Shown: piece by piece, positions 2,340-16,663 of the stretch
Numbering within the stretch: the stretch's first letter is position 1
How the letters are laid out: each line of letters opens with the position of its first letter
Assembly (NCBI GenBank): GCA_017992195.1
Contig: JAGOPC010000011.1
Coordinates: 1-27,071, forward strand
Source of the DNA: Patescibacteria group bacterium
GTDB taxonomy: Bacteria > Patescibacteriota > Gracilibacteria > Absconditabacterales > Absconditicoccaceae
Length of the DNA stretch: 27,071 nt
Reading direction: 5' to 3'
The notes under the pieces: model-generated
The model's database searches: none
What the model saw: the letters and a program-made list of their open reading frames with translations, nothing else
What the model was told of the DNA's origin: nothing
Made by a program: the position numbers and the translations under genes

Positions 2340-2586
2340 GATGTCATAAATTATAACATAAACTTTAAAAGTCTAGAGGCATTTTTAATGTTGCTATTGA
2401 TTTATAGCAAAAAAGGGATACGTAGCGCTCGCACAACAATATTGTTCACGCACAACACAAAAACCTTTTTATGACGCACAAAAAAAACAAGAAAAGAAAG
2501 TACTGATCGTAGGTGGATATGTAGACGTACCGTCCAATTGTCTCATCCTGGATGTAAAGAAAGATGCTGTTACACCCGGAGAAAAA

Positions 2587-3174
2587 TTGATTCGATTCTA
2601 CGAAAAAAAGAACAGACTCGACTTCGAACGACAATTAATTACTGCTATGAAAGCACTATTATCTCTCCCTTTAGAGATAGTTAACGTAGCCGATGGTGGT
2701 ATAAAATCAGAAGAAGGCGCTGTAGGACGGCTTATTGATATCGCCTGGACGGAGGTTGAAGGAACCATCGACTATCGAGCACAGTATACACATCCGATAG
2801 TAGTTCCTAAGGACCGGGCAACCCTTGTGAAAGATATGTGCCCCGACCTTGTCCTCTTCTTAGGAGGAACTCATACAGAATGGGAAGACTTGCAAATATG
2901 TAAGGAATTGAAAATACCCATGATAGCCCCGAAAGGCTGGAGCGACATTGGAGATATGGTCTTCAATGAGATAGCTTGGAACAAGAAACGCTACTTCGGT
3001 AGAAAATCTGTTGCACGAAAGTCCAGCAAAGTAGCTCAAGCATTCTCGCTTTTTGGCTACCTCTATAAGGACAATCAGTACGCTCCGTACCTTGATCCCT
3101 ATAATATCAAACTACTGGTCAAAAGTATTCTATCGCTGCCTCTCAGCGTACTACACACAGAACAGATTGGCTAA
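2587..3174 (+). CDS. SLOG/LOG-like Rossmann-fold protein (hypothetical); true start probably further upstream
   Basis: ORF ends at TAA and contains LFLGGTHTEWED, similar to the PGGxGTxxE motif of LOG/SLOG proteins. The same frame stays open back to 2389 and encodes a convincing beta-strand start (KVLIVGGYVDVP), but has no ATG or GTG there. An ATG at 2471 lies one frame off, across an A8 run (see findings). Confidence 0.45.
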   Translation: MIRFYEKKNRLDFERQLITAMKALLSLPLEIVNVADGGIKSEEGAVGRLIDIAWTEVEGTIDYRAQYTHPIVVPKDRATLVKDMCPDLVLFLGGTHTEWEDLQICKELKIPMIAPKGWSDIGDMVFNEIAWNKKRYFGRKSVARKSSKVAQAFSLFGYLYKDNQYAPYLDPYNIKLLVKSILSLPLSVLHTEQIG

Positions 3175-3256
3175 TAAAGCCGGCACACACGATTGAAATA
3201 ACTATCGATTTTTTCTAAGTCGATAGTTTTCTTGCGGTTTAAATATGTTTTCGCCA

Positions 3257-3284
3257 TTGACTTTAATATGCTACAGGATATAAT
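3257..3284 (+). promoter_or_regulatory. sigma70-like promoter, TTGACT-N16-TATAAT
   Basis: -35 at 3257-3262 and -10 at 3279-3284, 24 nt upstream of the ATG at 3308. No SD motif in the leader. Confidence 0.6.
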
Positions 3285-3307
3285 ACATCAACACAAAAAC
3301 ATATTGT

Positions 3308-3676
3308 ATGAACTTTCAAGACAACAAAGAGTACGAAAAAACTCAGTTAGCGGTTGCTAAGCTGCTAAATAATTCCCTCAACTTAGTAGAGAGCGTCAAG
3401 AATATGGTGAAAGACGGTACACTCATATCTTTTACTAATGCTAGTGGCGTTTTAACCGGCGGGACTACTATGCTAACCGGCGCTATGGTATGGGACAAGG
3501 TGCATCCAACTATGATACTACTTGGTATAGTTCCTACGGCAGATCGCATACAGAAGGGCATACCAGATCTCTTTACAGGTCTCCGATTTAACTGTGAGGG
3601 AGAAACAGTTAAGATATATCTTATAAAATCAGAAGATCCGTATCTTGAGAGCGAAGTAGCAATAGAAGTGTTGTAA
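3308..3676 (+). CDS. hypothetical protein (122 aa), weak similarity to the N-terminal half of LOG/SLOG proteins
   Basis: ORF from ATG to TAA with its own promoter and terminator. The segment VLTGGTTMLTGAMVW...LLGIVPTAD loosely resembles the GGxxGxMxA...GxxP part of LOG-like proteins. Confidence 0.5.
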   Translation: MNFQDNKEYEKTQLAVAKLLNNSLNLVESVKNMVKDGTLISFTNASGVLTGGTTMLTGAMVWDKVHPTMILLGIVPTADRIQKGIPDLFTGLRFNCEGETVKIYLIKSEDPYLESEVAIEVL

Positions 3677-3706
3677 GGCCCAAGAGGGTCTAGCAATGTA
3701 CTGAAA

Positions 3707-3732
3707 AGCCCCGGCATGTCCGGAGCTTTTTT
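3707..3732. terminator. rho-independent terminator between convergent genes
   Basis: Stem AGCCCCGG/CCGGAGCT (one mismatch), 5-nt loop and a T6 run on the + strand, with TTTT on the - strand. It lies between the 3308..3676 gene (+) and the pcrA 3' end (-). Confidence 0.6.
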
Positions 3733-3758
3733 CTTATATGTAATTGCGAAACCTATTC

Positions 3759-6047
3759 TTATTTCTTCTCTAAAAATCTCGCTTCTATCTTCCTCACACC
3801 AAACTTTTCGTTCTGGAATTTGACGACAGCGGTGTCACGTCGGACTTCGATGACTTCGCCGACACCGAAGAGTTTGTGCTTGACGATGTCGTGTTCGTTA
3901 AGATCAGTTTTCACCGCGTAACGGCTCGTTCAAAATCAGCCACCAGTTGATCTAGCACCAGAGGCAGCGGTCAGGTCGAACATCTTCTTGAGTTCTTCCG
4001 GAATCTCGTCAATGAAGCGTGATGACTGATTGTATTTGGTTTGTCATCGCTGCTTACGAGAGTTCGCATGTGAGAGGAAGAGATGGTCTTTAGCACGCGT
4101 GATAGCGACGTACATCAGACGTCTTTCTTCTTCCATCTCTGCATCGTCAAACGCTGCCTTCGGCAAAGGGAAGATGTTTTCTTCCAGTCAGACGAGGAAT
4201 ACGACCGAGAATTCGAGGCCTTTGCTGGCATGTACGCTCATGAGCTTGACGGCTTCGAGTTGTCCATCAGTATTCTCTTCGATATCTGTCATGAGCGTCA
4301 CCTCTTCGAGAAATTGGGTCAGAAGGACCATGCCATTTTGCGCATCTTCGACTTCGTCACTGTCATATCTCGAAGCTATATTTATGAGCTGACCGATATT
4401 TTCGTACTTTTCTTCACCGACTTCACGTCACTCAGCTTCTATCAGGTAATCCTTATATTTAATAGTTCTCACCAATTGCTCGATCAACTTTGCGGGCGTC
4501 AGCCCGTCTGCAGCCTGACGAAGAAACTTCATAGATGTCATAAACTGGCTGATCGCCTTCTGCGTGGACGGTCCTAAGACCACTGGAAGCATATCGATCT
4601 GTTCTGCGACATCCGAAAAGGTCGACTTGTTTTGCTGAGCGTACTCTTCGAGCTTCGCGACACTGTCGGTTCCGATCTTTCTTTTCGGCGTATTGATGAT
4701 TCTTTTCAGCGCTACGGAATCTCTGGGATTCAGCAAATATTTCAGATACGACATCACATCCTTTACCTCTTTTCTTTCGAAGAATTTGAAACCACCATAG
4801 ACCTTATACGGTATAGCTTCCTGGAGGAGTACCTGTTCAAAGACCGCAGATTGCGCATTAGTCCTGTAGAGGATGGCGAACTCAGCCCGAGACTTGTTCT
4901 TGTCGGTCTTGAGCTTTTTCATCAAATCGATGAGTGTCATCGCCTCATCGGTCTCATCACCATGGGTGAAGACCATGATTTTTTCGTCACCGGAACGGTG
5001 AGGTACGACAGTTTTGTCGTACTGGTTTTTGTTATGTTTGATGATGAAATTTCCCGCGTGAACGATATGCGGACGTGAACGATAGTTAGTTTGAAGTTTA
5101 AATATTTGAATATCAGGCCACACTTTTTTGACCTCGAGAAAGTTCTCCATCACCGCACCACGCCGGCGATAGATCGACTGGTAGTCATCACCGATAAAGG
5201 TAATATTCGCGCCACCACCGGTCAGCTGCTTCATCAATTCAAACTGAATTCGGTTGGTATCCTGCGCCTCATCCACAAGAATATAGCGAAATTTCTGCTG
5301 CCAGCGCTTCAAAATATCCGGATTATTTTTGAATATTAAATACGGGACCAGCAACAGATCGTCGAAATCGCACATGTTACACTCGTGAAATTTCTTCTCG
5401 TAGCGCTCGTAGATCATACCCATCGTCTGCTCGTAACCATCACTACCATGGCCAAACTGTTTCGCCGTGATTCCCTGTCATTTCAACTTTGAGATAAACG
5501 AGCGAGCCTCCCTCACCTCGACATCGTTTTCCATCTTCAGATCCTTAATAATCTCCTTCAGGATCGACTGTGCCTCCTGCTCATCGTAGACACCAAAACT
5601 GCCATTTCGCGGCAATCCCTCAGCGTTTTTCATCTCCTCCTTGAGGAATCTCAGAAACATCCCATGAAAGGTGCCAATCCGCTTAAATGATCAAGAGTGA
5701 AAACGAGGAAGAGATCAGACATTATTATCTGCAGCTTCATCGGAAATCATCTTATCAAAATCCATAACTTCTTCCGTCTTTCACACCTGCATTTTTTCCG
5801 AGATCTCCTCGGCTATCTTCACAAGTCTTTCCTTCATCTCATTCGCTGCCTTATTGGTGAATGTCACCGCCAGCACCTGATCGGATCTGACCTTTTTTTC
5901 AAACAGCAAGTATCAAATCTTGTATGTCAAAACTCTCGTTTTCCCTGAACCTGCACCCGCCAAGATAAGAGCTGAACTATCAGTATGTAAGGCAGCTTTC
6001 GTCTGCTCATCATTCAACTGTCCGCGTATATAATCCTTAATATCCAT
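3759..6047 (-). CDS. pcrA: ATP-dependent DNA helicase, PcrA/UvrD family (SF1)
   Basis: Single frame of 762 aa from ATG (6045-6047) to TAA (3759-3761), with 10 in-frame TGA and no TAA or TAG. Family motifs present: [69 protein letters not shown] (that G is a TGA), [15 protein letters not shown], and a C-terminal [10 protein letters not shown]. Confidence 0.92.
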
Positions 6048-6130
6048 GAGCTTTTTCAACGTATAATGAAACAAACGTTCTACTTCTAACGATATCTTCT
6101 TTTAATGCAATACCAGCGCATTTTTTACCA

Positions 6131-6158
6131 TTGCTTTATCGGCTAAAAATGATAAAAT
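6131..6158 (+). promoter_or_regulatory. sigma70-like promoter, TTGCTT-N16-TAAAAT
   Basis: -35 at 6131-6136 and -10 at 6153-6158, 23 nt upstream of the ATG at 6181. Confidence 0.5.
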
Positions 6159-6180
6159 GTCAATCTAAACGAAAAATATT

Positions 6181-6906
6181 ATGCAAAACATATATTCAAT
6201 CATACCATCGCCTCAAAATTGCTCTCTCGACCAGCTGCAAATCTATATGCTTTGCTTGCGTGCTATAGAATATACGATCAATAAAAAAACCGTATGTTTA
6301 GCCTCCCTGGGGATTCGCACAGAAGATAAGCATATCATGAAACAAGTAGTGGAGTCACTACGAGCTATGGGCTTCGGTGTACAGGAAAGAGAAGCTACTA
6401 ATTATGTGTACAGCGGGGCAAAGGCAAATAACAATGGTCGCCCCAGTTCTTTTTGGGCAGGGGGGCTCGACTATTACGAGATCACTTCGGCATTACGAAA
6501 GATTGCGTACTATATTACGCAACAGCCACCAAAAGGTGAGTATTCGATCAAGCGTATCCATGTCTTGATAGATAATGAGGATGGGACATTCAGTAATGAG
6601 TCTCTTCCGAATACGCTCATTGAAAAATCAGAGTTAAACCTTCCTACACTTACCGAATGTAAATGTCTCGCCCCAGATGGATCGTATCTCTGGATAAACT
6701 CCGAGGGGGAGATCTACTATTCAGAAGATATGGAAGGCATTCACCTAATGAAAGCAGAAAAGTACTGACAACCTCAATTAGTAAGTACAGAGTATCCCGG
6801 GTTTACCTGGGATTTTTTTATGGGAAAATGACTCAGTGATTATACTATATATAAAGCTAAAAAATGTGTTGACAATCCATGTCGAATGCATATGATAGAA
6901 CCCTAA
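6181..6906 (+). CDS. hypothetical protein; the end coordinate depends on how TGA 6766-6768 is read
   Basis: The standard-code ORF is 6181..6768 (195 aa) and ends in TGA. With TGA=Gly the frame continues through a second TGA (6829-6831) to TAA at 6904-6906. That extension crosses a strong terminator hairpin and the next gene's promoter. Confidence 0.5.
6794..6819 (+). terminator. rho-independent terminator
   Basis: Stem ATCCCGGG/CCTGGGAT (one G-U pair), loop TTTA, followed by T7. Confidence 0.7.
6869..6896 (+). promoter_or_regulatory. sigma70-like promoter, TTGACA-N16-TATGAT
   Basis: -35 at 6869-6874 and -10 at 6891-6896. This places the transcription start downstream of the ORF-track ATG at 6879, so ATG 6918 is the usable start. 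Confidence 0.6.
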
Positions 6907-6917
6907 AACTAAACAGA

Positions 6918-7349
6918 ATGAAAAAACTATTTATTACAATCGCAGCGTTCGCGACATTGAGCGCGATCACAGACAGCTTAACAGCAGCAGGCAAAACAGA
7001 TGCAAGCATCTCCCAGACCATTGAAGCCTACGGCAGGGTGCATTACCCGGACCAGTACACCGATGCAGCCAGCGAAGATGTACAGGCAGTGATGGACAAC
7101 CTGGATGAGGATGACAATGGTATCAGTATGAGCGTTGACGACGAAGGCAACCTTACTATTACCAGCGCGCACAGTGATGACCAGGCCGCAGATGTAACTA
7201 TGAGCGATGATGCCGGCGCGGGCGACGCAGTAACAGCTTTGTTTGCAACAGCAGCTGAGGAAACTACGGAAGCAACAAGCGCCGAAGTAAATGAGCCTGA
7301 AACAGCAGAAGCTGCAATACCGGACGGCGACGCAACAACTGAAGCGTAA
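6918..7349 (+). CDS. secreted acidic low-complexity protein (signal peptide)
   Basis: MKKLFITIAAFATLSAITDSLTAAG is a typical signal peptide. The remainder is rich in D, E, A and T. Stop is TAA. Local GC is visibly higher than in the flanks. Confidence 0.6.
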   Translation: MKKLFITIAAFATLSAITDSLTAAGKTDASISQTIEAYGRVHYPDQYTDAASEDVQAVMDNLDEDDNGISMSVDDEGNLTITSAHSDDQAADVTMSDDAGAGDAVTALFATAAEETTEATSAEVNEPETAEAAIPDGDATTEA

Positions 7350-7375
7350 GACATTCCTTCCCTATGAACACTATT

Positions 7376-7408
7376 ATCTCCCGCGTTTTATACGTGGGGG
7401 ATTTTTTT
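7376..7408 (+). terminator. rho-independent terminator
   Basis: 10-bp stem ATCTCCCGCG/CGTGGGGGAT (two G-U pairs), 7-nt loop, followed by T7. Confidence 0.7.
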
Positions 7409-7445
7409 ATGAAGAAAAAACGTTGGATGGACAGTTTTAGAGATA

Positions 7446-7473
7446 TTGACATTAGTTTGGGATCTCATATACT
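7446..7473 (+). promoter_or_regulatory. sigma70-like promoter, TTGACA-N16-TATACT
   Basis: -35 at 7446-7451 and -10 at 7468-7473, upstream of the ATG at 7512. Confidence 0.55.
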
Positions 7474-7511
7474 ACTCGCAGTATATTTCACCTCCTTTAT
7501 GAAGCAATATC

Positions 7512-8477
7512 ATGGACGCATTATGGGAACAATTAGAACAAAGAGAGAGTAAGAAAAAGAAGGATAAAGAATTAATCCGATTTGGCTCGTATCTGCCAGA
7601 CTACCAGACAGCAGTAAAAACTGCTTCTTTTGCGAATAATTTGCAGAAAGCTCTTGATGGCGTGCCGGAGTTTGACAAGAAAGCAGTGATGGCAGCGTTC
7701 AATAAGCTTGTCACTGACGAGTATATGACAGCAGAGGAGGAGCAGCTTTTGATGGAGTTTACGGGAAGCAGACAGACGAACCGGTTTGTGAAATATAATA
7801 TAGAAGAACATATCTGGGAGGTGATCAAATTGCATGAGATGCATATAGCGACCTTGGAGAAAATTTTGGAGCAGGATGAGAACAATACGAATAATGTGAA
7901 TGATCGTATAGGAGCAGTCATGAACCGATCACATAGCCAGTTCTCTCATACAGGATTAAGTAAGTTTGCGGGAGAGCAGGACTCACGTACGTATTTCAAC
8001 GAGCTTGAGGCGAAGCATCCGACTAAAGAGTTGAGCTTTACCTCACATCAGATGAGTGAGTTCAAGATAAGCGATACGAGAGAGATCATGCAGAAGAAAA
8101 AATACTATGCCCAGAAAAAGATGCAGTTTCATCAGGATCTCGTGAACTGCCTGAGAAATCTTATCGCCAAGCCAGGCAGCATGCACACTGAGGTATTTAA
8201 GGATGATACGGCGGGTTCATTATTTACGCTGAGAAGACTTATCAATCTTCACCAGGCTACACATGAAATGAAGAAATGGAAGGATCACAGCTCAAGGAAA
8301 TCCAAGAATATCAAAGTTGTCTCAGAAAACGGCAACACACTGCGCATCAAAAGAAATGACGATCACTTCGATTTTAAAATCTCTCCTCCAGTGCGCTTGC
8401 TCAAAGAAGTTTCGAGCAGTGAAGTATTCCTTTCAAAAGTACCACTCTATAATACGTTGATTGTAGATACCCCATAG
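7512..8477 (+). CDS. hypothetical protein (321 aa)
   Basis: ORF from ATG to TAG with no internal TGA. Hydrophilic and rich in charged residues. No family motif recognised. Confidence 0.6.
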   Translation: MDALWEQLEQRESKKKKDKELIRFGSYLPDYQTAVKTASFANNLQKALDGVPEFDKKAVMAAFNKLVTDEYMTAEEEQLLMEFTGSRQTNRFVKYNIEEHIWEVIKLHEMHIATLEKILEQDENNTNNVNDRIGAVMNRSHSQFSHTGLSKFAGEQDSRTYFNELEAKHPTKELSFTSHQMSEFKISDTREIMQKKKYYAQKKMQFHQDLVNCLRNLIAKPGSMHTEVFKDDTAGSLFTLRRLINLHQATHEMKKWKDHSSRKSKNIKVVSENGNTLRIKRNDDHFDFKISPPVRLLKEVSSSEVFLSKVPLYNTLIVDTP

Positions 8478-8531
8478 AGAAAAGAGAATAGTTTAACATG
8501 AGATGGATAAATTTTGTCAATTCAAATAATC

Positions 8532-8559
8532 TTGACACAGCATTTTACAAGATTAAAGT
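8532..8559 (+). promoter_or_regulatory. sigma70-like promoter, TTGACA-N16-TAAAGT
   Basis: -35 at 8532-8537 and -10 at 8554-8559. This implies a 5' leader of about 130 nt before the ATG at 8696. Confidence 0.45.
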
Positions 8560-8695
8560 TACGCGAAGTAGTATCCTACTGAAAGCGGCCCTTAACATTT
8601 TCATTCTATCTATCACACTTCCTTTTTTAGCACACACATAAAGATCAAAGACCAAACCAAATTATAAAACAAACAAGCTAAAAAAACGAAGTATC

Positions 8696-9139
8696 ATGAA
8701 AACAAAAATCATCGTTGCGCTGGCGAATTCCAGTGTCGTGAAAAAAAGAGTCCAGCAGGAGCTGGAAGGCGTAAAATGCAGTACGCCGGCAGAAGTTGCA
8801 AACTGGCTGGGGAAGCTCAGCTACACTGATGAGCATCTCATCATCATCGTCGGTCATACCGGCGGGGTAGAGATAGCTGAGATGGTAGCGAAGCTGAGAA
8901 GCAAGACAGGGTTAAATCAAGATCCGATTGCAGGCTCAAAAAACCTGGAAGTACATTACTTCTCAAGCCAAATGCTGCAAAAAAGACATGAGACTCTATT
9001 CAACTCTCGGATAGAACGGCTCTATGGAAACCACACCGAAAACCTGATATTATTCCTACAGAAACAAACAGGGCATCTACACGAACACGTGGAACAGTTT
9101 GTCAAAGAAAACGAATTAGTTTTAGAATTTGCCGCCTAA
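8696..9139 (+). CDS. hypothetical protein (147 aa)
   Basis: ORF from ATG to TAA, followed by a terminator. No motif recognised. Confidence 0.55.
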   Translation: MKTKIIVALANSSVVKKRVQQELEGVKCSTPAEVANWLGKLSYTDEHLIIIVGHTGGVEIAEMVAKLRSKTGLNQDPIAGSKNLEVHYFSSQMLQKRHETLFNSRIERLYGNHTENLILFLQKQTGHLHEHVEQFVKENELVLEFAA

Positions 9140-9176
9140 AACGATTCGTGATTCGTCAATGTATCCCTCTCACTAT

Positions 9177-9209
9177 GGGAAGAATGTTTATCATTCCTTC
9201 CCTTTTTTT
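9177..9209 (+). terminator. rho-independent terminator
   Basis: Stem GGGAAGAATG/CATTCCTTCCC (one bulge), 5-nt loop, followed by T7. Confidence 0.65.
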
Positions 9210-9226
9210 ATACAAAAAATCTACAA

Positions 9227-9254
9227 TTGACTTCAAGAAGACAAAGCATAAAAT
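9227..9254 (+). promoter_or_regulatory. sigma70-like promoter, TTGACT-N16-TAAAAT
   Basis: -35 at 9227-9232 and -10 at 9249-9254, 28 nt upstream of the ATG at 9282. Confidence 0.55.
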
Positions 9255-9281
9255 GTCAATGATTTAAAAAATGTAGTAGTG

Positions 9282-10343
9282 ATGCAGCTAAAACTAGACT
9301 TTGTATACGATAACGTGCAAGATGCTTTTATCAAAAATGGGATCACTAATGAGTCAAAAGAGCTTTGACCCTATATTTTTATGTTTCTACAAAAGAAAAA
9401 AGACGACATACAAAGAGTATTAGAGCTGTCCACGCAGATAAAATGGGTGCAAGATCAATTTGTGTGAGCGAATTTTCCAAGAAATTATACAGACGCTCTT
9501 ATAAAGGTGGTATTGAAGAAAAAACTATTTAATGAGCTTGTATGGTTGATCGATGACAGCTGATATTTACGCTGAGTAAAAGCTGTAATTAAAAAGAACC
9601 AGGAGATGAAAGAAGACGGATATGGATTTTATCTGAAGAATAAGGGGAATAGTAAATTTCCGAGATTTTGATCATTATCGCTTGGCTACTCAAGAGTATC
9701 ATTGGCCTATCTTCTTCAGAAAATTGTGAAAGACGTGGAGAAGTTTAAAAAAGCATATGAATGATTGTATAGTTATCATAGTACTGCTCGAGATCCTCCC
9801 AAAAGTAAATCCAAAGCACACGAAGATACACTGAGGGACGTGCTTGAGTTTATCGTAGGTGGCGGGCGAGACATAGAAGACGATGATATAGGAAACTTCT
9901 CCAGATTGCGTGTTGCGCTTGTACAAGATATCAGATCGACATGACTACCCGATGAGGTTCTGGAAGAGCTTGAAATGCGTTTAAAAATCAAGGAAAAGAG
10001 CGAACGTAAAACATTGTGAGACGCCGACAGCCAACAAGACTTTTTGGAAGCATTTTTCTGCTACTTCAGCTTTATGGACGCTATCCCTGCATTTATCGAA
10101 AAGCGAAAGAGCGGTGAACAAGGGAAGCAAGAGCTGATCACTGATTTCACTATCAAATATCATAATGATCCTCATGTAAATCCTAGACTTATCGGCATGT
10201 CTCCTTCTCAGCTTGGAACAAAGGAATTTGAAAAGAGATACCAAACACGAGCGAACCAGGAGTATAAGGATAAAGATGGTCTGAAGAAGAAAAGAAGAGA
10301 TATCATTGACGATGGAACAATGTTTGCGGATCAATACTACTAA
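9282..10343 (+). CDS. hypothetical protein (353 aa), visible only with TGA=Gly
   Basis: Frame 0 has no TAA or TAG from 9252 to TAA at 10341-10343. It contains 8 in-frame TGA (9366, 9465, 9561, 9573, 9669, 9762, 9942, 10017). The ORF track shows only its last 99 aa (10044..10343). A consensus promoter lies directly upstream. Confidence 0.7.
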
Positions 10344-11380
10344 ACCAGATTTTCCGGCATCCGATCTATCTTAAACCCACGACCTACCATATTCAATTTT
10401 TCAAAAGCTCCATCTAAAAAAGGACGCACTCACGCTCATTTTATCACGATATTATATCTATACTTGTCGTGCATCTTGTAAACGAGGGGAGGAGTAGCGT
10501 AGATTTCCAGCTTATTCTCTGATTTCTCCGCGAGAAATAAGAGCTCCTGATAGAGCTTGTTAACTGTCGTAAACATCTTCTGTTCGATCTCATTTTTATA
10601 GAGGACCACAGCGATCTCAGTGTAAGGAGGATAGAGATGATCCTCACGAAATTTCTTTTCTCCCAATGCGAAGGCCTCAACATCTCTGTTACACGCGCAA
10701 CGGATAGCGGGACTATCAGTATGATATGACTGCACGATGATATTATCAGCGTAGTTGTCAATAATACTCGACAGCGTCGTAAAGGTCTTTTCATGCGACT
10801 TATAGTCGGGGATGTGCAGGCCGCTATCCGCATTGAATATAATCACCAGATCCGGCTTCCGGTCTTTCGGCGGAGTCGCCAGCAACGATGTTCAAACGAT
10901 AACCTGCGCATCCTGCAAAAGCGGCATCAGCTTCTTCACCTTTGCCTGACTGTTGGCCGTTTCCGAATCTATCGTCAGCACTCTCATCGCCCCAAACTCT
11001 TTCTGCAATAGCCCCTCGAGCTTCTGCACGCCACTTCCATAGAGCTTAATATTATGGCCATGACACTGTGGACACTGCCCAAACGAACTATAGTGCTTCT
11101 TACAGATATGACAAATCCCATAGAGCTCGCCATGCACATCCTGATGAAACGCAATCGGGATATCACAATGATCACACTTCGGCACAAGTCCGCAATCATC
11201 ACACAGCATTCCAGTTGCAAAGCCCTTTTTATTCGCGATGATCAGCACCTTCTTACCCTCCTTTATCATCTTACGAATCCCACCATCGGCCAACGACGAA
11301 AATCCTGAAGCTGTCCTATCCTGCTTCATATCAACCAAAAATATCTTCTTATCCGCGCGCTCAAAGCGTTCATAATTCAT
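10340..11380 (-). CDS. priA: PriA-like protein, C-terminal half only (Cys-rich Zn region, helicase lobe 2 remnant and C-terminal domain)
   Basis: 346 aa from ATG (11378-11380) to TAG (10340-10342) with 3 in-frame TGA (10892, 10436, 10430). All four CxxC pairs are intact: CDDCG..CDHC..CHIC..CPQC. It has IVGTS (G is a TGA) matching PriA IGTQ, and a C-terminal KIDRMPENLV resembling the PriA tail. There is no Walker A or DExH part. An upstream in-frame stop lies at 11447 and a terminator sits 40 nt upstream. The motif VI position reads IIDNYADN instead of QVAGRAGR. Confidence 0.75.
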
Positions 11381-11418
11381 ACACCCAGAGTATCTATTTA
11401 CGGACGAATTTAAACAAC

Positions 11419-11445
11419 AAAAAAAGCCCGCACAAAAATGCAGGC
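11419..11445 (-). terminator. rho-independent terminator
   Basis: On the - strand: stem GCCTGCA/TGCGGGC (one G-U pair), 6-nt loop, followed by T7. It lies directly after the 11478 gene. Confidence 0.6.
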
Positions 11446-11477
11446 TTACTCTTAGATAATTGGTTTTTGATCAGTAA

Positions 11478-12503
11478 CTATTTTACCGCAACTGATTGTT
11501 GTCTTTTTTCCAACTCACACCATAAATCCGACGGAATCATGTTACACATAAAGGTAACCAGTTCGTGAAACTCCAGGCCAGCAACTGATCTAAAGATGTA
11601 GTTAAAATTAAGCTCTGCCGCAAACGGCATCTCATATGCTTTACAATGTTCAACATACGAAGCATAGTCTATGATCGGATTCTTATGAAAACCGCTCAGC
11701 ATCTTATCCTCGATAGCCACACTAAACAGTAGAGGATTTTCAAAGCTACCTGCTACGAATATCTCAGAACAAACAAAAGGAACCGGACCTAAATGAGAAA
11801 TACCCTGATGAAGACTAAAAAGCACTCTGCCTACGCCCGGTTCTGTTATTCCTTGCACGGTAAAAGCCCTGAGAAAGGCAAGCATTTCTTGCGTATAGTT
11901 CAGCTCTGCATTAAACTTTTGCGCAGCAGCCTTAGAACTTTCAATCGCGTTATAGAACTCCTTTCGCATACTAACCTTTTTGCTAGGATCAGTAAATTGC
12001 ATATCACCTGATTTCGAAATAGTTTCCACTAAGCGCCCATATGTACCTTCTGGCATATATAAGTGAGGTAAACGAGCCTTATAATCAGCAGGGATACTAG
12101 TTGCGATGAACTGTAATAAATCAGCCACCGGCAACGCTTCCATCATGTAGTCGAACACATTATAGTCTATTGCCTTGAAATCATGAACTGTGCAATAATC
12201 ATAATAGTTACTATAATCTTCCATCGGTACATGCTCACATATCGCAATACTCAAACTGTTTCTAAATACGATACTCAACAGTTTTCTTTCGAGAAGAGAG
12301 TATACCATACATGTCACATAATAGTCATTATTTTCTTGCTCTACTAAATAGACAAGAGAATACCGCGACTGATTATATTTGAAGACAATTTTCCATTTAC
12401 CGTGAGGTGCCTGCTGCGATGATTTAATCTGAAATAATGTTGAACTTTTCATACAAGTTTTTTTTGATGTAATTAATGTTAATGTCCGCGTCATTATTGA
12501 CAT
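11478..12503 (-). CDS. hypothetical protein (341 aa)
   Basis: ORF ends in TAG and has no internal TGA. It has its own promoter and terminator. The ATG at 12501-12503 lies 5 nt downstream of a -10 box. Alternative starts are ATG 12491 or the later MKSS Met. No motif recognised. Confidence 0.6.
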   Translation of the reverse strand: MSIMTRTLTLITSKKTCMKSSTLFQIKSSQQAPHGKWKIVFKYNQSRYSLVYLVEQENNDYYVTCMVYSLLERKLLSIVFRNSLSIAICEHVPMEDYSNYYDYCTVHDFKAIDYNVFDYMMEALPVADLLQFIATSIPADYKARLPHLYMPEGTYGRLVETISKSGDMQFTDPSKKVSMRKEFYNAIESSKAAAQKFNAELNYTQEMLAFLRAFTVQGITEPGVGRVLFSLHQGISHLGPVPFVCSEIFVAGSFENPLLFSVAIEDKMLSGFHKNPIIDYASYVEHCKAYEMPFAAELNFNYIFRSVAGLEFHELVTFMCNMIPSDLWCELEKRQQSVAVK

Positions 12504-12508
12504 TTCCA

Positions 12509-12536
12509 ATCTTAATCATGGACGGATATAAGTCAA
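12509..12536 (-). promoter_or_regulatory. sigma70-like promoter, TTGACT-N16-TAAGAT, predicted leaderless
   Basis: On the - strand: -35 at 12531-12536 and -10 at 12509-12514. The ATG begins 6 nt after the -10 box. Confidence 0.5.
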
Positions 12537-12582: not shown

Positions 12583-13485
12583 ATGTTACGTCACCAGCCA
12601 GTTATGGCGAAAGAGGTTTTTGAGTCACTCCCAACGGATCGGAAGGTCTATGTCGATGGGACTTTTGGGCATGGTGGACATGTAGAATATATACTGAATG
12701 AAATGACGCAATGAGGAAATGAGGAGACCTTACAATGAAGAAAAGTGATAGCGATCGACCGTGATGAGAAGATGCTGGAGAAGGGGAAGGAGCTTTTGAG
12801 TAAACATCATAAGTACATTGAGTTTGTTCGTGATACCTATAGCAATATTGACGGAATATTGGCAAAGGAGATCATCCAGAAAGCTGATTATATATTGCTT
12901 GATCTAGGTGTGAACATGGAACACTTTAAAGACCCGGAGCGTGGTTTTTCGTTTCTGCATGACGCGCCGCTGGACATGCGTTTTGATCAGTCAAGTGGAC
13001 AGACGGCAGCGATGGTAGTGAATACGTATTCGCGCGAGAAACTTGCGAAGATGTTTACAACCTATGGAGACTTTGCACCAACGAGCGGGCTGTATATGGC
13101 AGATGCGCTCATAGAAAAGAGGAGCGAGGGACATATCCTGACGACGCATGAGCTCAATGACACCCTCAGAAAGAAATGAATCAGAAAAGACCAGATGGCG
13201 GTGGTGTTTCAGTGCCTGAGAATAGAGACCAACCAGGAGTTGGATGCACTATTAGAATTTTTGGATGAGTTTCCGAAAATGTTGAATAAGGGCGGAAGAT
13301 GCGCTATTATGACCTACCACAGCATCGAGGATCGTCTGGTGAAGATTGCATTTAAGAAGCTGTGCGAGGAAAACTCGGCCTTCGTGCTCTACAATAAGAA
13401 AGTTATAGCGCCGCACTATACCGAGGTGCAGCATAACAGGGCTGCGAGAAGTGCGAAGTTACGCGTGATCGAAAGAATTGCATAG
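12583..13485 (+). CDS. rsmH: 16S rRNA (cytosine1402-N4)-methyltransferase RsmH (MraW)
   Basis: 300 aa from ATG to TAG with 3 in-frame TGA (12712, 12736, 13177). Family motifs present: HQPVMAKEV, YVDGTFGHGGH, AIDRD, LLDLGV, ERGFSF, APLDMRF, FQCLRIETNQEL, MTYHSIEDRLVK, RSAKLR. Confidence 0.9.
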
Positions 13486-15015: not shown

Positions 15016-15038
15016 CTTATTATAATTCCTTATTTCAA

Positions 15039-16070
15039 TCAGTCAAAGTACGTATTGACCGCGTCGACTAGCGGCTCATAATCCCTGATCAGCGCAACAA
15101 CATTCTTGAAGTCTCTATTTCCTACTAAGCCGTTCACATAGTTGAACAGATACTTTCTATATTCGATAACCGACTTGCCGATCTCATATTTCGTCACATC
15201 AAAGTTTTCTACTTCGTCCATCCATTGCTTATATGATGGTTGTGGAAATTTGTCGGTGAAATGAAGATTTTTGTTGTAATAATCGTACGAGATAATCATT
15301 AATTTGAGATGAAAAAGTATGATCTCACGACGTTCTTCAGGAGTGGGCTCGTGATTTACAAAAATTCGTGGATCGGCGATCGCAGCCTGGCCTATCATGA
15401 TTCAGTCTAGATTTTTCCTCAGTTCCAATGCTTGCTCGTAGGATTTCACTCCACCATTTCAAATGATCAGACATTGATCCCCGACAGCCTTCTTCACATC
15501 GTAAATATAGTCCCGATCAACCGAGCCCGAATGCGACTGCTTATAGGTCCTACCATGGATCGTGATCGTCTTGCAGTGCGGCGCAGCAGCGATGATAAAC
15601 TCTTTTTGCGCAGCCTTATCGTCATCAGTGAGGCCGGCACGGGTCTTGATACTAAAGGGCAGAGGAGCTACCGCATCTTTCAAACGCTTTATCAACTCCA
15701 ATGTTTTTTCTTTTTCCCTCATCATACCTGCACCACCTCCACACGCCATCACCTTTGGCGATGGGCAACCTATGTTGAGCTCGAGACCAGCGAATCCAGG
15801 ATATTTCGTGACGATATCTTTTGCGGTTGCGACCAAATCATCATGATCTCACCCGTAGATCTGCGCTATGGTCTGCGTCTCAAAATCGGTCTTAATAATA
15901 TGATGAACTAAGCGCTGAGGCTGGCGAATATAACCTTCCGCATTCATAAATTCGGTCCACATCCGCAACTTCGTATCAGGATCCTTATTATATTTCTCAA
16001 AAATCTGCTTCACGACGATGCGGTAAGCAGCATTAGTGATCCCATCCATCGGAGCAAGTCACATAATCAT
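15039..16070 (-). CDS. dus: tRNA-dihydrouridine synthase (Dus family)
   Basis: 343 aa in one frame from ATG (16068-16070) to TAA-type stop, with 4 in-frame TGA (16059, 15849, 15459, 15402). Family motifs present: LAPMDGITNAAYR, QIYGGD, LELNIGCPSPKV, SIKTRAG, ITIHGRT, IIGNGG, LDGIMIGQAAIADPRIF. Confidence 0.9.
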
Positions 16071-16077
16071 GCATCAG

Positions 16078-16105
16078 AGTATAGGGATTTTCTTTAGGAT
16101 CTCAA
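16078..16105 (-). promoter_or_regulatory. sigma70-like promoter, TTGAGA-N16-TATACT, predicted leaderless
   Basis: On the - strand: -35 at 16100-16105 and -10 at 16078-16083. The dus ATG starts 7 nt after the -10 box. Confidence 0.5.
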
Positions 16106-16109
16106 AGTA

Positions 16110-16139
16110 TAAAAAAAGCCCGACCTTATGCGGTCAAGC
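16110..16139 (-). terminator. rho-independent terminator
   Basis: On the - strand: stem GCTTGACC/GGTCGGGC (two G-U pairs), 6-nt loop, followed by T7-8. Confidence 0.6.
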
Positions 16140-16159
16140 TATTGAAAATCAATGACGTT

Positions 16160-16663
16160 TTACTTCTTTCGCTGTATTCGGATGCGTAGTTGTTGTTTTC
16201 CTGCGATAATAGCTGCTGAGGTAAAAGTACCCGCAAAGAGGAAGATCAATAGACCTATTACAAAGGTTATACATCCCTCTAAAACGGAGTAATTTCCTGT
16301 AGTATGTTCGGCAATCCACCGCCATAATGCCACTATACCCACGACTCCTATGAGAGCCGAAGTAACAACCCATCCTGCAGAGTCAAATGCCTTCTCGATA
16401 GAGATGACATATTCTTCCAACAGTTGCATTGCTCGTTCTTTAACGTAGCTAACGGGCATAATGCTCATCGCAAATATAGCTAGAAAGACAGCGCCACATG
16501 CGGACCAAACAAGAGTGATCATACCCCAAAACCGAGAATTGTGCAGAAGGTGGAAGGAGCCATATACTCCTACACAACACCCCAGACAAAATACGATTAA
16601 TGTCAGGCTTTCAGACAAATCTCTTGCTCTGAAATCATAATTAGTATGTAATTTCTGTATCAT
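16160..16663 (-). CDS. integral membrane protein (167 aa, about 4 TM)
   Basis: ORF from ATG to TAA with four long hydrophobic segments. It has its own promoter and terminator. Confidence 0.6.
   Translation of the reverse strand: MIQKLHTNYDFRARDLSESLTLIVFCLGCCVGVYGSFHLLHNSRFWGMITLVWSACGAVFLAIFAMSIMPVSYVKERAMQLLEEYVISIEKAFDSAGWVVTSALIGVVGIVALWRWIAEHTTGNYSVLEGCITFVIGLLIFLFAGTFTSAAIIAGKQQLRIRIQRKK

What the first reader, a model, noticed from the sequence alone, without database searches (positions are those of the whole stretch)
10340..12536. priA is reduced to its C-terminal half, with the catalytic motif degenerate and the Zn fingers intact, next to a TGA-free orphan gene
The PriA-like ORF starts where the second RecA lobe of canonical PriA begins (FLVDMKQ...). 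The 3'-DNA-binding domain, the winged helix and the Walker A/DExH lobe are all absent. An in-frame stop and the upstream gene's terminator lie immediately 5' of its ATG. The position of motif VI (QVAGRAGR) reads IIDNYADN, so ATPase or helicase activity is unlikely. All four CxxC pairs and the C-terminal domain are retained, and the ORF is intact through three TGA-Gly codons. The adjacent 341-aa orphan (11478..12503) has its own promoter and terminator and no TGA codon. That is consistent with a foreign insertion having replaced the priA 5' half. The remnant could be a decaying gene or a repurposed zinc-finger/CTD protein, for example one still binding SSB or DnaB-type partners.
Basis: partly seen in the sequence, partly recalled or inferred. 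Interest (0 to 1): 0.65.

Follow-up and report, generated by a model that had tools for sequence, protein, structure and literature searches.

The report
Half-size PriA conserved across SR1 bacteria
The gene is a real, strongly conserved half-size version of the replication-restart protein PriA, present in at least 119 SR1/Absconditabacteria species; it keeps the zinc-finger and DNA-encircling parts, lacks the ATP motor and fork-recognition parts, and was not created by the neighbouring orphan gene.

Summary
ORF 10340..11380 (-) encodes 346 aa in code 25. It matches only the C-terminal part of PriA: RecA lobe 2 (HD2), the Cys-rich region (CRR) and the C-terminal domain (CTD). All eight Cys are present and motif VI is lost.

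This is not a recent truncation or a decaying remnant. The same 343-352 aa form, with an ATG at the same position, occurs in at least 120 protein clusters and 119 species genomes of TGA=Gly bacteria labelled SR1/Absconditabacterales. dN/dS against the closest relative is 0.087.

The orphan occurs in only 2 of 86 loci. In relatives the short priA directly abuts rsmH or dus, so the orphan is a later insertion. Its lack of TGA is not significant (P about 0.10).

The retained domains are the three that frame the ssDNA pore and carry the partner-docking surface in E. coli PriA. My best reading is an ATP-independent mini-PriA used in replisome reloading. That function is inferred, not shown.

No N-terminal half lies within 10 kb in any of the 86 loci. 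A genome-wide check was not possible. Stand-alone N-halves do exist in a different recoded lineage and in standard-code relatives.

The parts
10340..11380 (-). Short priA (mini-PriA), 346 aa plus TAG stop, read in code 25. Domains: HD2, CRR, CTD.
11330..11380 (-). Residues 1-17. An N-terminal beta-hairpin (MNYExF...K.IFLVDM) equivalent to the HD1|HD2 linker hairpin of full-length PriA. The ATG is conserved in 85 of 86 loci.
11051..11209 (-). Cys-rich region, residues 58-110, with four CxxC pairs. All eight Cys are invariant or nearly so across the family.
11219..11230 (-). Motif IV equivalent, NKKG (residues 51-54). It is conserved. The Gly is often encoded by TGA in relatives.
10880..10894 (-). 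Motif V remnant, GTSLL (residues 163-167). G163 is a TGA codon (10892..10894). The KGxxFP part of motif V is lost.
10745..10774 (-). Position of helicase motif VI (residues 203-212, LSSIIDNYAD). No Arg fingers here, and none of 120 family members has the motif.
10343..10630 (-). C-terminal domain (residues 251-346) with invariant YPP, TPPLxYK and KYRYN elements. TGA-Gly codons at 10436..10438 and 10430..10432.
11424..11447 (-). Terminator-like hairpin plus T-run downstream of the orphan, 44 nt upstream of the priA ATG.
11478..12503 (-). 341-aa lineage-specific orphan gene, a later insertion between rsmH and the short priA. It is under purifying selection (dN/dS 0.19).
12509..12536 (-). Sigma-70-like promoter match upstream of the orphan (9 of 12 positions).
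12583..13485 (+). rsmH. It is the divergent neighbour of the short priA wherever the orphan is absent (L005, L009).
3759..6074 (-). UvrD/PcrA-type helicase. It lies immediately downstream of the short priA, on the same strand, in L005, L008, L015 and L028. Here it is separated by about 4.3 kb of variable genes.

Best explanation
The ORF is a member of a lineage-wide, selectively maintained mini-PriA of the TGA=Gly SR1/Absconditabacterales clade. It consists only of RecA lobe 2 (HD2), the zinc-binding Cys-rich region (CRR) and the C-terminal domain (CTD).

Shown:
- It is an ancient, fixed gene architecture, not a local truncation. The orphan gene was inserted next to it later.
- The ATP site cannot be formed in the canonical way. 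Lobe 1 is absent and the motif VI arginines are lost in every member.
- The nucleic-acid-contacting motif IV, part of motif V, all eight Cys and a basic CTD core are conserved.

Inferred:
- HD2, CRR and CTD are the three domains that frame the lagging-strand ssDNA pore in E. coli PriA, and the CRR carries its partner-docking surface.
- PriA's ATPase is dispensable for replisome reloading.
- The mini-PriA therefore most likely works as an ATP-independent ssDNA clamp and adaptor. It would mark ssDNA at abandoned forks or D-loops and recruit the replicative helicase or another partner.
- Fork-structure recognition would be either abandoned or supplied by another factor.
For: Family size and constancy:
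- At least 120 clusters at 90% identity, nearly all 343-352 aa, 41-86% identical over 100% of the query.
- 119 GTDB species genomes. The 80 loci fetched nearly all match from residue 1 to residue 331-346 (one starts at residue 9, one is cut at 314). They include the complete chromosomes CP006913.1, CP060225.1 and OZ246420.1.
- Across the 86 loci analysed (these 80, five earlier loci and the window), every copy has 1 to 10 or more in-frame TGA. An ATG aligns with M1 in 85 of 86. The open frame upstream is short (median about 9 codons).

Selection and separateness:
- dN/dS is 0.087 against the 86% relative.
- Profile scores separate the family (315-546 bits) from canonical PriA (215 bits or less).

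Motif pattern:
- None of 120 members has motif VI. 95 keep NKKG and 109 keep GTSLL. Invariant columns are listed.

Fold:
- The best structural match is 8fak_H, the fork-bound form of E. coli PriA (E 1.5e-22).

Literature:
- The ssDNA pore is framed by CRR, HD2 and CTD. PriB docks on the CRR. ATPase-dead K230A PriA still loads DnaB, and ATPase is not needed in vivo (PMC10175261).
- D. radiodurans PriA is a natural pseudohelicase that still binds DNA and DnaB (PMC4504706).
- An Arg at family position 319 (101 of 121 sequences) lies one column from E. coli R698, which may correspond to the SSB-tail-binding Arg697 of K. pneumoniae PriA.

Absence of an N-half:
- No N-half is found in the 1.34 Mb surrounding the 86 copies.
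Against: - No biochemical data exist for this family.
- The fork-recognition modules (3'BD and WH) are missing, so how the protein would be targeted is unexplained.
- In E. coli, lagging-strand binding also uses 3'BD and HD1 residues.
- The SSB-tail pocket of K. pneumoniae PriA is, as I recall it, built partly from N-terminal domains that are absent here.
- Whole-genome absence of an N-terminal half could not be tested.
- Stand-alone N-halves exist in related lineages. A trans-acting partner therefore cannot be excluded.
- No conserved operon partner was found. Neighbours vary: dus upstream in 32 loci, uvrD downstream in 9 of 86.
Confidence: 0.55

Rival explanations
1. Split gene. SR1/Absconditabacterales encode the N-terminal half (3'BD-WH-HD1) at an unlinked locus, and the two polypeptides assemble into a two-chain PriA.
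For: - Stand-alone N-half genes ending exactly at the HD1|HD2 boundary exist. About 23 clusters are in standard-code relatives; P0364 (L090) and P0321 (L091) were confirmed as stand-alone genes on 1.6-Mb and 126-kb contigs.
- About 30 loci of a TGA-recoded lineage carry stand-alone N-halves.
- Stand-alone C-halves with intact motifs V and VI also exist, for example P0158 in L174. Splitting priA at this boundary is therefore a real phenomenon in this part of the tree.
Against: - The recoded N-half loci belong to a different deep lineage. Their GC median is 0.23 against 0.35.
- Six shared housekeeping gene families are 34-44% identical to the SR1 set, against 51-83% within it.
- No N-half lies within 10 kb of any of the 86 short priA genes.
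- No named SR1/Absconditabacterales protein appears among the 120 best N-half hits.
- Motif VI, needed to complete an ATP site with lobe 1, is lost in all members.
- The SR1 C-half carries its own copy of the first hairpin strand (residues 3-8). The split-type C-halves lack this strand, and the N-halves end with it.
Confidence: 0.17
2. Repurposed protein. The HD2-CRR-CTD module is kept for a job other than replisome reloading, for example as an accessory to the adjacent UvrD/PcrA helicase or as a zinc-ribbon DNA- or RNA-binding factor.
For: - uvrD lies downstream on the same strand in 9 loci. In 4 of them it is within 60 bp (L005, L008, L015, L028).
- Loss of every fork-recognition domain fits a changed substrate.
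- NCBI annotates members only as 'hypothetical protein'.
Against: - The uvrD linkage is limited to a subclade. dus is the commonest neighbour.
- The parts conserved are the same parts that are conserved and functional in canonical PriA: CRR, CTD core and motif IV.
- No other PriA was seen near any of the copies.
Confidence: 0.22
3. This is a recent truncation caused by insertion of the foreign orphan gene, leaving a decaying remnant.
For: - The orphan sits exactly where the 5' half would be, and it has its own promoter-like and terminator-like signals.
- The orphan has only two homologs among 5.8 billion proteins.
Against: - The short form predates the orphan. It is present in all 86 loci, the orphan in 2.
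- dN/dS is 0.087.
- Start, length and 25 invariant residues are conserved.
- The TGA-free status of the orphan is not significant.
Confidence: 0.02

Closest known systems
Canonical PriA (primosomal protein N', TIGR00595 / PRK05580; E. coli and K. pneumoniae structures 4NL4, 6DCR, 8FAK)
   Same: - HD2, CRR and CTD are homologous in sequence (E 1e-24 to 1e-62) and in fold (Foldseek E 1.5e-22).
- The four CxxC pairs, motif IV, part of motif V and the CTD core strands are conserved.
   Different: - It lacks the 3'BD, WH and HD1 domains, about 390 residues.
- Motif VI and the KGxxFP part of motif V are lost.
- It scores below the curated cut-offs of every PriA model.
- It is about half the size.
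Deinococcus radiodurans PriA pseudohelicase (PMC4504706)
   Same: It is a natural PriA that has lost its ATPase/helicase motifs but is retained. That precedent binds DNA and DnaB without ATP hydrolysis.
   Different: The Deinococcus protein is full length and keeps the N-terminal DNA-binding domains. Here the whole N-terminal half is gone.
Full-length motif-degenerate PriAs of Patescibacteria (for example P0148 in L087, P0168 'primosomal protein N'')
   Same: They are the closest full-length hits to the family profile (P0148, 215 bits). The canonical Walker A, DExH and motif VI patterns are degenerate or absent.
   Different: They retain the 3'BD and lobe 1 and use the standard genetic code. 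They keep the usual priA-def-fmt synteny.
Stand-alone PriA half-genes in related lineages: N-half only (P0364, P0321, P0408) and C-half only with intact motifs (P0158, P0145, P0205)
   Same: The break point is the same, at the HD1|HD2 boundary. The C-halves have the same domain content.
   Different: Those C-halves keep motifs V and VI and lack the first hairpin strand. They probably pair with an N-half. The SR1 form has lost motif VI, and no partner was found.

Membership tests
PriA (TIGR00595 / PRK05580 equivalogs) | Whole-protein score at or above the curated cut-off | tested here: not met
   TIGR00595 scores 183.7 bits against a cut-off of 230.35. NF004066 scores 209 against 813.
PriA | N-terminal 3' DNA-binding domain (PF17764) and winged helix | tested here: not met
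   No Pfam hit. The N-half HMM finds nothing in the window or in the 86 loci.
PriA | RecA lobe 1 with Walker A (GxxGSGKT) and DExH | tested here: not met
   The match begins at E. coli PriA residue ~391. Lobe 1 is absent from the ORF, and upstream there are only 34 open codons with no start codon.
PriA | RecA lobe 2 with motifs IV, V and VI | tested here: inconclusive
   The lobe-2 fold is present. Motif IV (NKKG) and GTSLL are kept. The KGxxFP part of motif V and all of motif VI are lost in 120 of 120 members.
PriA | Cys-rich region with four CxxC pairs inserted in lobe 2 | tested here: met
   C60/63, C69/72, C90/93 and C103/106. Six of the eight Cys are invariant and two (C60, C106) are conserved in at least 90% of sequences.
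PriA | C-terminal domain (PF18074 PriA_C) | tested here: met
   PF18074 gives E 5.3e-5 at 24.4 bits, just under the 26.9 cut-off. The domain is aligned through residue 315 to solved PriA structures and covered by the fold match.
PriA | ATP-dependent 3'-5' helicase activity and primosome assembly | not testable with these tools
   This needs biochemistry. The sequence predicts no ATPase.
PriA pseudohelicase (Deinococcus type) | Full-length PriA architecture with degenerate helicase motifs | tested here: not met
   The motifs are degenerate, but the architecture is half length.
Split PriA (two-gene form) | An N-half gene in the same genome | tested here: inconclusive
   None within 10 kb in 86 loci. 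The recoded N-half loci belong to another lineage. Whole genomes could not be read.

The most novel reading that the evidence does not exclude
PriA has been partitioned in the TGA=Gly bacteria.
- SR1/Absconditabacterales keep only the C-terminal pore and zinc module (HD2-CRR-CTD, ATPase-dead).
- A separate low-GC recoded lineage keeps only the N-terminal fork-recognition and RecA-1 module.
- A third recoded lineage keeps an intact full-length PriA.

On this reading the SR1 mini-PriA is a self-sufficient, ATP-independent helicase-loading adaptor. It would define the minimal functional core of the otherwise broadly conserved bacterial replication-restart protein.
Probability: 0.3. Interest if true: 0.8.

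Novelty: new variant of a known kind. Interest (0 to 1): 0.6.

Why it matters
PriA is the central, broadly conserved bacterial replication-restart protein. Its fork-recognition domains and its helicase core are usually treated as integral to it.

An entire order-level lineage keeps only HD2-CRR-CTD under strong purifying selection. That is a natural deletion experiment, and it points to the ssDNA-pore and zinc module as the part that can stand alone.

It gives a small protein (346 aa) for testing how partner recruitment and ssDNA capture work without ATP or fork recognition. It also bears on how minimal-genome episymbionts restart replication.

There is a practical consequence. The gene is currently labelled 'hypothetical protein' in NCBI records. 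Public protein sets mistranslate its TGA-Gly codons as Trp or as stops, so genome surveys will wrongly score priA as absent or broken in these bacteria.

Tried and rejected
The host accepts only table-11 window products. I used the 86%-identical ortholog P0001 instead.
- A look-up of the window's DUF4012 protein, tried to extend the window, was not on record.

Orphan gene:
- No hit in Pfam, NCBIfam, PHROGs or PADLOC.
- The AlphaFold model was useless (pLDDT 35), so I ran no fold search.

Taxon names and literature:
- Cluster look-ups mostly returned no names.
- Searches pairing PriA with Absconditabacteria, CPR, Gracilibacteria or Patescibacteria found no paper.

Ideas considered and rejected:
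- The orphan is a very diverged N-half. It has no Walker A or DExH, no HMM hit, and it is absent from 84 of 86 loci.
- Short C-half hits with intact motif VI are all fragments. Some are (MYKRQ adapter artefact, non-Met starts). P0158 is a genuine stand-alone gene.
- The recoded N-half genes belong to the SR1 genomes. GC content and housekeeping-gene identity argue against this.

Full report
**What is in the window**

The window is read in genetic code 25 (TGA = Gly). Table-25 ORF calling roughly doubles the coding content compared with table 11. In public protein sets that translated TGA as Trp, 'W' alternates with 'G' in columns where canonical PriA has conserved glycines.

Under this code, 10340..11380 (-) is an intact 346-aa ORF with TGA at codons 163, 315 and 317. 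It matches only the C-terminal part of PriA:
- TIGR00595 positions 165-476 of 509 (183.7 bits, below the cut-off) and NF004066 positions 441-752 of 788.
- E. coli PriA 391-695 and K. pneumoniae PriA 406-710.
- PF18074 (PriA_C) weakly.

Motif VI (QVAGRAGR) is replaced by SSIIDNYA, and all four CxxC pairs are present. An AlphaFold model built on 106 family members (pLDDT 87.4, pTM 0.78) has PriA structures as its nine best PDB matches. These cover the whole chain, and the fork-bound E. coli structure 8fak_H is first (E 1.5e-22).

Upstream lie a terminator-like hairpin (11447..11424) and the 341-aa orphan (11478..12503), which has a promoter-like site. The nearest in-frame stop is 35 codons upstream rather than adjacent. 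The orphan's lack of TGA is not significant: it has 12 Gly codons, P is about 0.10, and six other ORFs here also lack TGA.

**It is a family, not an accident**

- A search of 5.8 billion proteins returned at least 120 clusters. Nearly all are 343-352 aa, 41-86% identical over 100% of the query, and the few names given are 'Candidatus Absconditabacterales'.
- A scan of one genome per GTDB species found the gene in 119 genomes. The 80 loci fetched nearly all match from residue 1 to residue 331-346. They include complete chromosomes of SR1 bacteria (CP006913.1, CP060225.1, OZ246420.1) and the human oral taxon HOT-345.
- The 86 loci analysed are these 80, five earlier loci and the window. Every copy has in-frame TGA codons. 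In 85 of 86 an ATG aligns with Met1. The frame upstream is closed after a median of about 9 codons.
- dN/dS against the 86%-identical relative is 0.087.
- In an exhaustive profile search, full-length family representatives score 315-546 bits. Canonical full-length PriAs score 215 bits or less, always through their C-terminal ~320 residues.

**The orphan came later**

The orphan has only two homologs anywhere: a 99% copy and the 71% ortholog in the 86% relative. It occurs in 2 of 86 loci.

In L005 the short priA starts 72 bp from the divergent rsmH and is followed directly by uvrD. In 32 loci dus lies upstream on the same strand, often within a few bases.

Alignment of the window with L001 shows conserved blocks (rsmH plus orphan, priA, uvrD, DUF4012) separated by non-homologous islands on both sides of priA. 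The orphan is itself under purifying selection (dN/dS 0.19), but it remains functionally opaque.

**What is conserved and what is lost**

After correcting W to G, these elements are conserved:
- motif IV (NKKG);
- the first half of motif V (GTSLL);
- all eight Cys;
- YPP;
- the CTD core TPPLxYK...KYRYN.

The KGxxFP part of motif V is lost. Motif VI is absent in 120 of 120 members. With no lobe 1 and no arginine fingers, canonical ATP hydrolysis is not expected.

**Mechanistic reading (inferred)**

[quoted passage not shown] PriB docks on the CRR. ATPase-dead K230A PriA still supports DnaB loading, and ATPase is dispensable in vivo (PMC10175261).

D. radiodurans PriA is a natural pseudohelicase that still binds DNA and DnaB (PMC4504706). 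An Arg conserved in 101 of 121 family sequences lies one alignment column from E. coli R698. That residue may correspond to Arg697 of K. pneumoniae PriA, the CTD arginine critical for SSB-tail binding.

The SR1 protein therefore retains the pore and docking module and discards the motor and the fork-recognition domains. I propose that it is an ATP-independent ssDNA-binding adaptor in replisome reloading. How it would be targeted to forks is unknown.

**Is there an N-terminal half elsewhere?**

An HMM built from the N-terminal halves of 77 full-length PriAs finds nothing in the 1.34 Mb around the 86 copies, including the whole window. The best hit has E 0.008 and is a UvrB-like helicase.

Searching with the N-half of P0183 gave an unexpected result. 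P0183 is a full-length, motif-intact PriA from another TGA=Gly organism whose Walker A glycines are themselves TGA codons. The search found stand-alone N-half genes (3'BD-WH-HD1, with intact Walker A and DEEH) that end exactly at the HD1|HD2 boundary:
- About 23 clusters are in standard-code relatives. P0364 lies on a 1.6-Mb contig with recR next to it, and P0321 is a second confirmed example.
- Two clusters are from recoded organisms, P0320 and P0408.

A metagenome scan extended the recoded set to about 30 loci. Their ORFs are 317-337 aa with 9-16 in-frame TGA, and none has a C-half within 10 kb.

These loci are not SR1. Their GC median is 0.23 against 0.35. Six housekeeping gene families shared with the SR1 loci are 34-44% identical across the two sets, against 51-83% within the SR1 set.

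Stand-alone C-halves with intact motifs V and VI also exist (P0158, a genuine gene in L174). A standard-code CPR contig carries a C-half with degenerate motif VI (P0211, L173).

So priA is broken at this domain boundary repeatedly in this part of the tree. The SR1 form differs from the split-type C-halves in two ways. It has lost motif VI, and it carries its own first hairpin strand.

I could not read whole SR1 genomes. I give the split-gene rival about 17%.

**Comparison with what is known**

The protein works like, and descends from, PriA, but it fails most family-defining tests. It has no 3'BD, WH or lobe 1, it has no motif VI, and it scores below the cut-offs.

The closest described precedent is the full-length Deinococcus pseudohelicase. 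Full-length motif-degenerate PriAs also occur among its nearest full-length relatives in Patescibacteria. Eight of 97 representatives lack the canonical Walker A, DExH and motif VI patterns together, for example P0148 and P0168. This suggests a route in which the ATPase is lost first and the N-terminal half afterwards.

No paper in the searchable library links PriA to these lineages. NCBI labels members 'hypothetical protein'.

**Verdict**

- The 'insertion-caused, decaying remnant' interpretation is rejected.
- The 'retained Zn-finger/CTD protein' idea is supported and sharpened.
- This is a new variant of a known kind, of moderate to high interest.

Noticed in passing
L092-L118, L122, L127, L140 (for example L097 9992-10954; L092 4985-5995): About 30 metagenomic loci of a low-GC (0.17-0.35) TGA=Gly lineage carry a stand-alone N-terminal PriA half. 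It is 317-337 aa (3'BD-WH-HD1) with intact Walker A and DEEH and 9-16 in-frame TGA. None has a C-half within 10 kb. This is the mirror image of the SR1 situation.
   Followed up: partly
L090 6001-7155; L091 6001-7185; L174 6001-7026: Standard-code relatives (labelled Gracilibacteria or Peregrinibacteria) have stand-alone N-half PriA genes (~385 aa). Elsewhere there are stand-alone C-half genes with intact motifs V and VI (P0158). This suggests a genuinely split two-gene PriA. Co-occurrence in one genome was not shown.
   Followed up: partly
L088/L089 8001-10025: A third recoded organism has a full-length, motif-intact PriA (674 aa) with 32 TGA codons. All three Walker A glycines and the motif V and VI glycines are TGA. 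This is very direct evidence for TGA=Gly, and it shows that the truncation is not a consequence of the recoding.
   Followed up: yes
Protein database entries P0001-P0120: Public protein sets translate these genes with TGA as Trp (table 4) or cut them at TGA (the 257-aa forms P0004 and P0005). 'W' therefore alternates with 'G' at conserved glycines, and consensus motifs look degenerate (NKKW, IWTSLL) when they are not. NCBI names the family 'hypothetical protein'.
   Followed up: yes
L087 10001-12166 (P0148); also P0168, P0174, P0243, P0261 and others: Eight of the 97 closest full-length PriA representatives lack the canonical Walker A, DExH and motif VI patterns together. One of them is named, as 'Patescibacteria group bacterium'. 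P0148 keeps the usual priA-def-fmt synteny. Full-length PriAs with degenerate helicase motifs seem to recur outside Deinococcus-Thermus.
   Followed up: partly
window 6113-10340 and 2342-3755: Both sides of the conserved blocks are variable islands compared with the 86% relative L001. Five lineage-specific + strand ORFs (6181-10343) sit between the short priA and uvrD. A 922-aa ResIII/Helicase_C gene lies between uvrD and DUF4012 in L001. It is absent here and is replaced by two small TGA-free ORFs (2587-3174, 3308-3676).
   Followed up: partly
window 9279-10343 (+) versus 10340-11380 (-): The 354-aa unknown ORF (8 TGA codons, no family hit) converges on the short priA, and the two stop codons overlap by 4 nt (10340-10343).
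   Followed up: no
L173 10001-11011 (P0211): A standard-code, 22%-GC CPR-like contig encodes a 336-aa C-half-only PriA with degenerate motif VI and no N-half nearby. This may be an independent origin of the mini-PriA architecture.
   Followed up: partly
window 15030-16373 (-): The dus ORF as called (447 aa) has about 105 residues before the Dus domain starts. The true start is probably further downstream. dus is the commonest upstream neighbour of the short priA in other genomes (32 of 86 loci).
   Followed up: no
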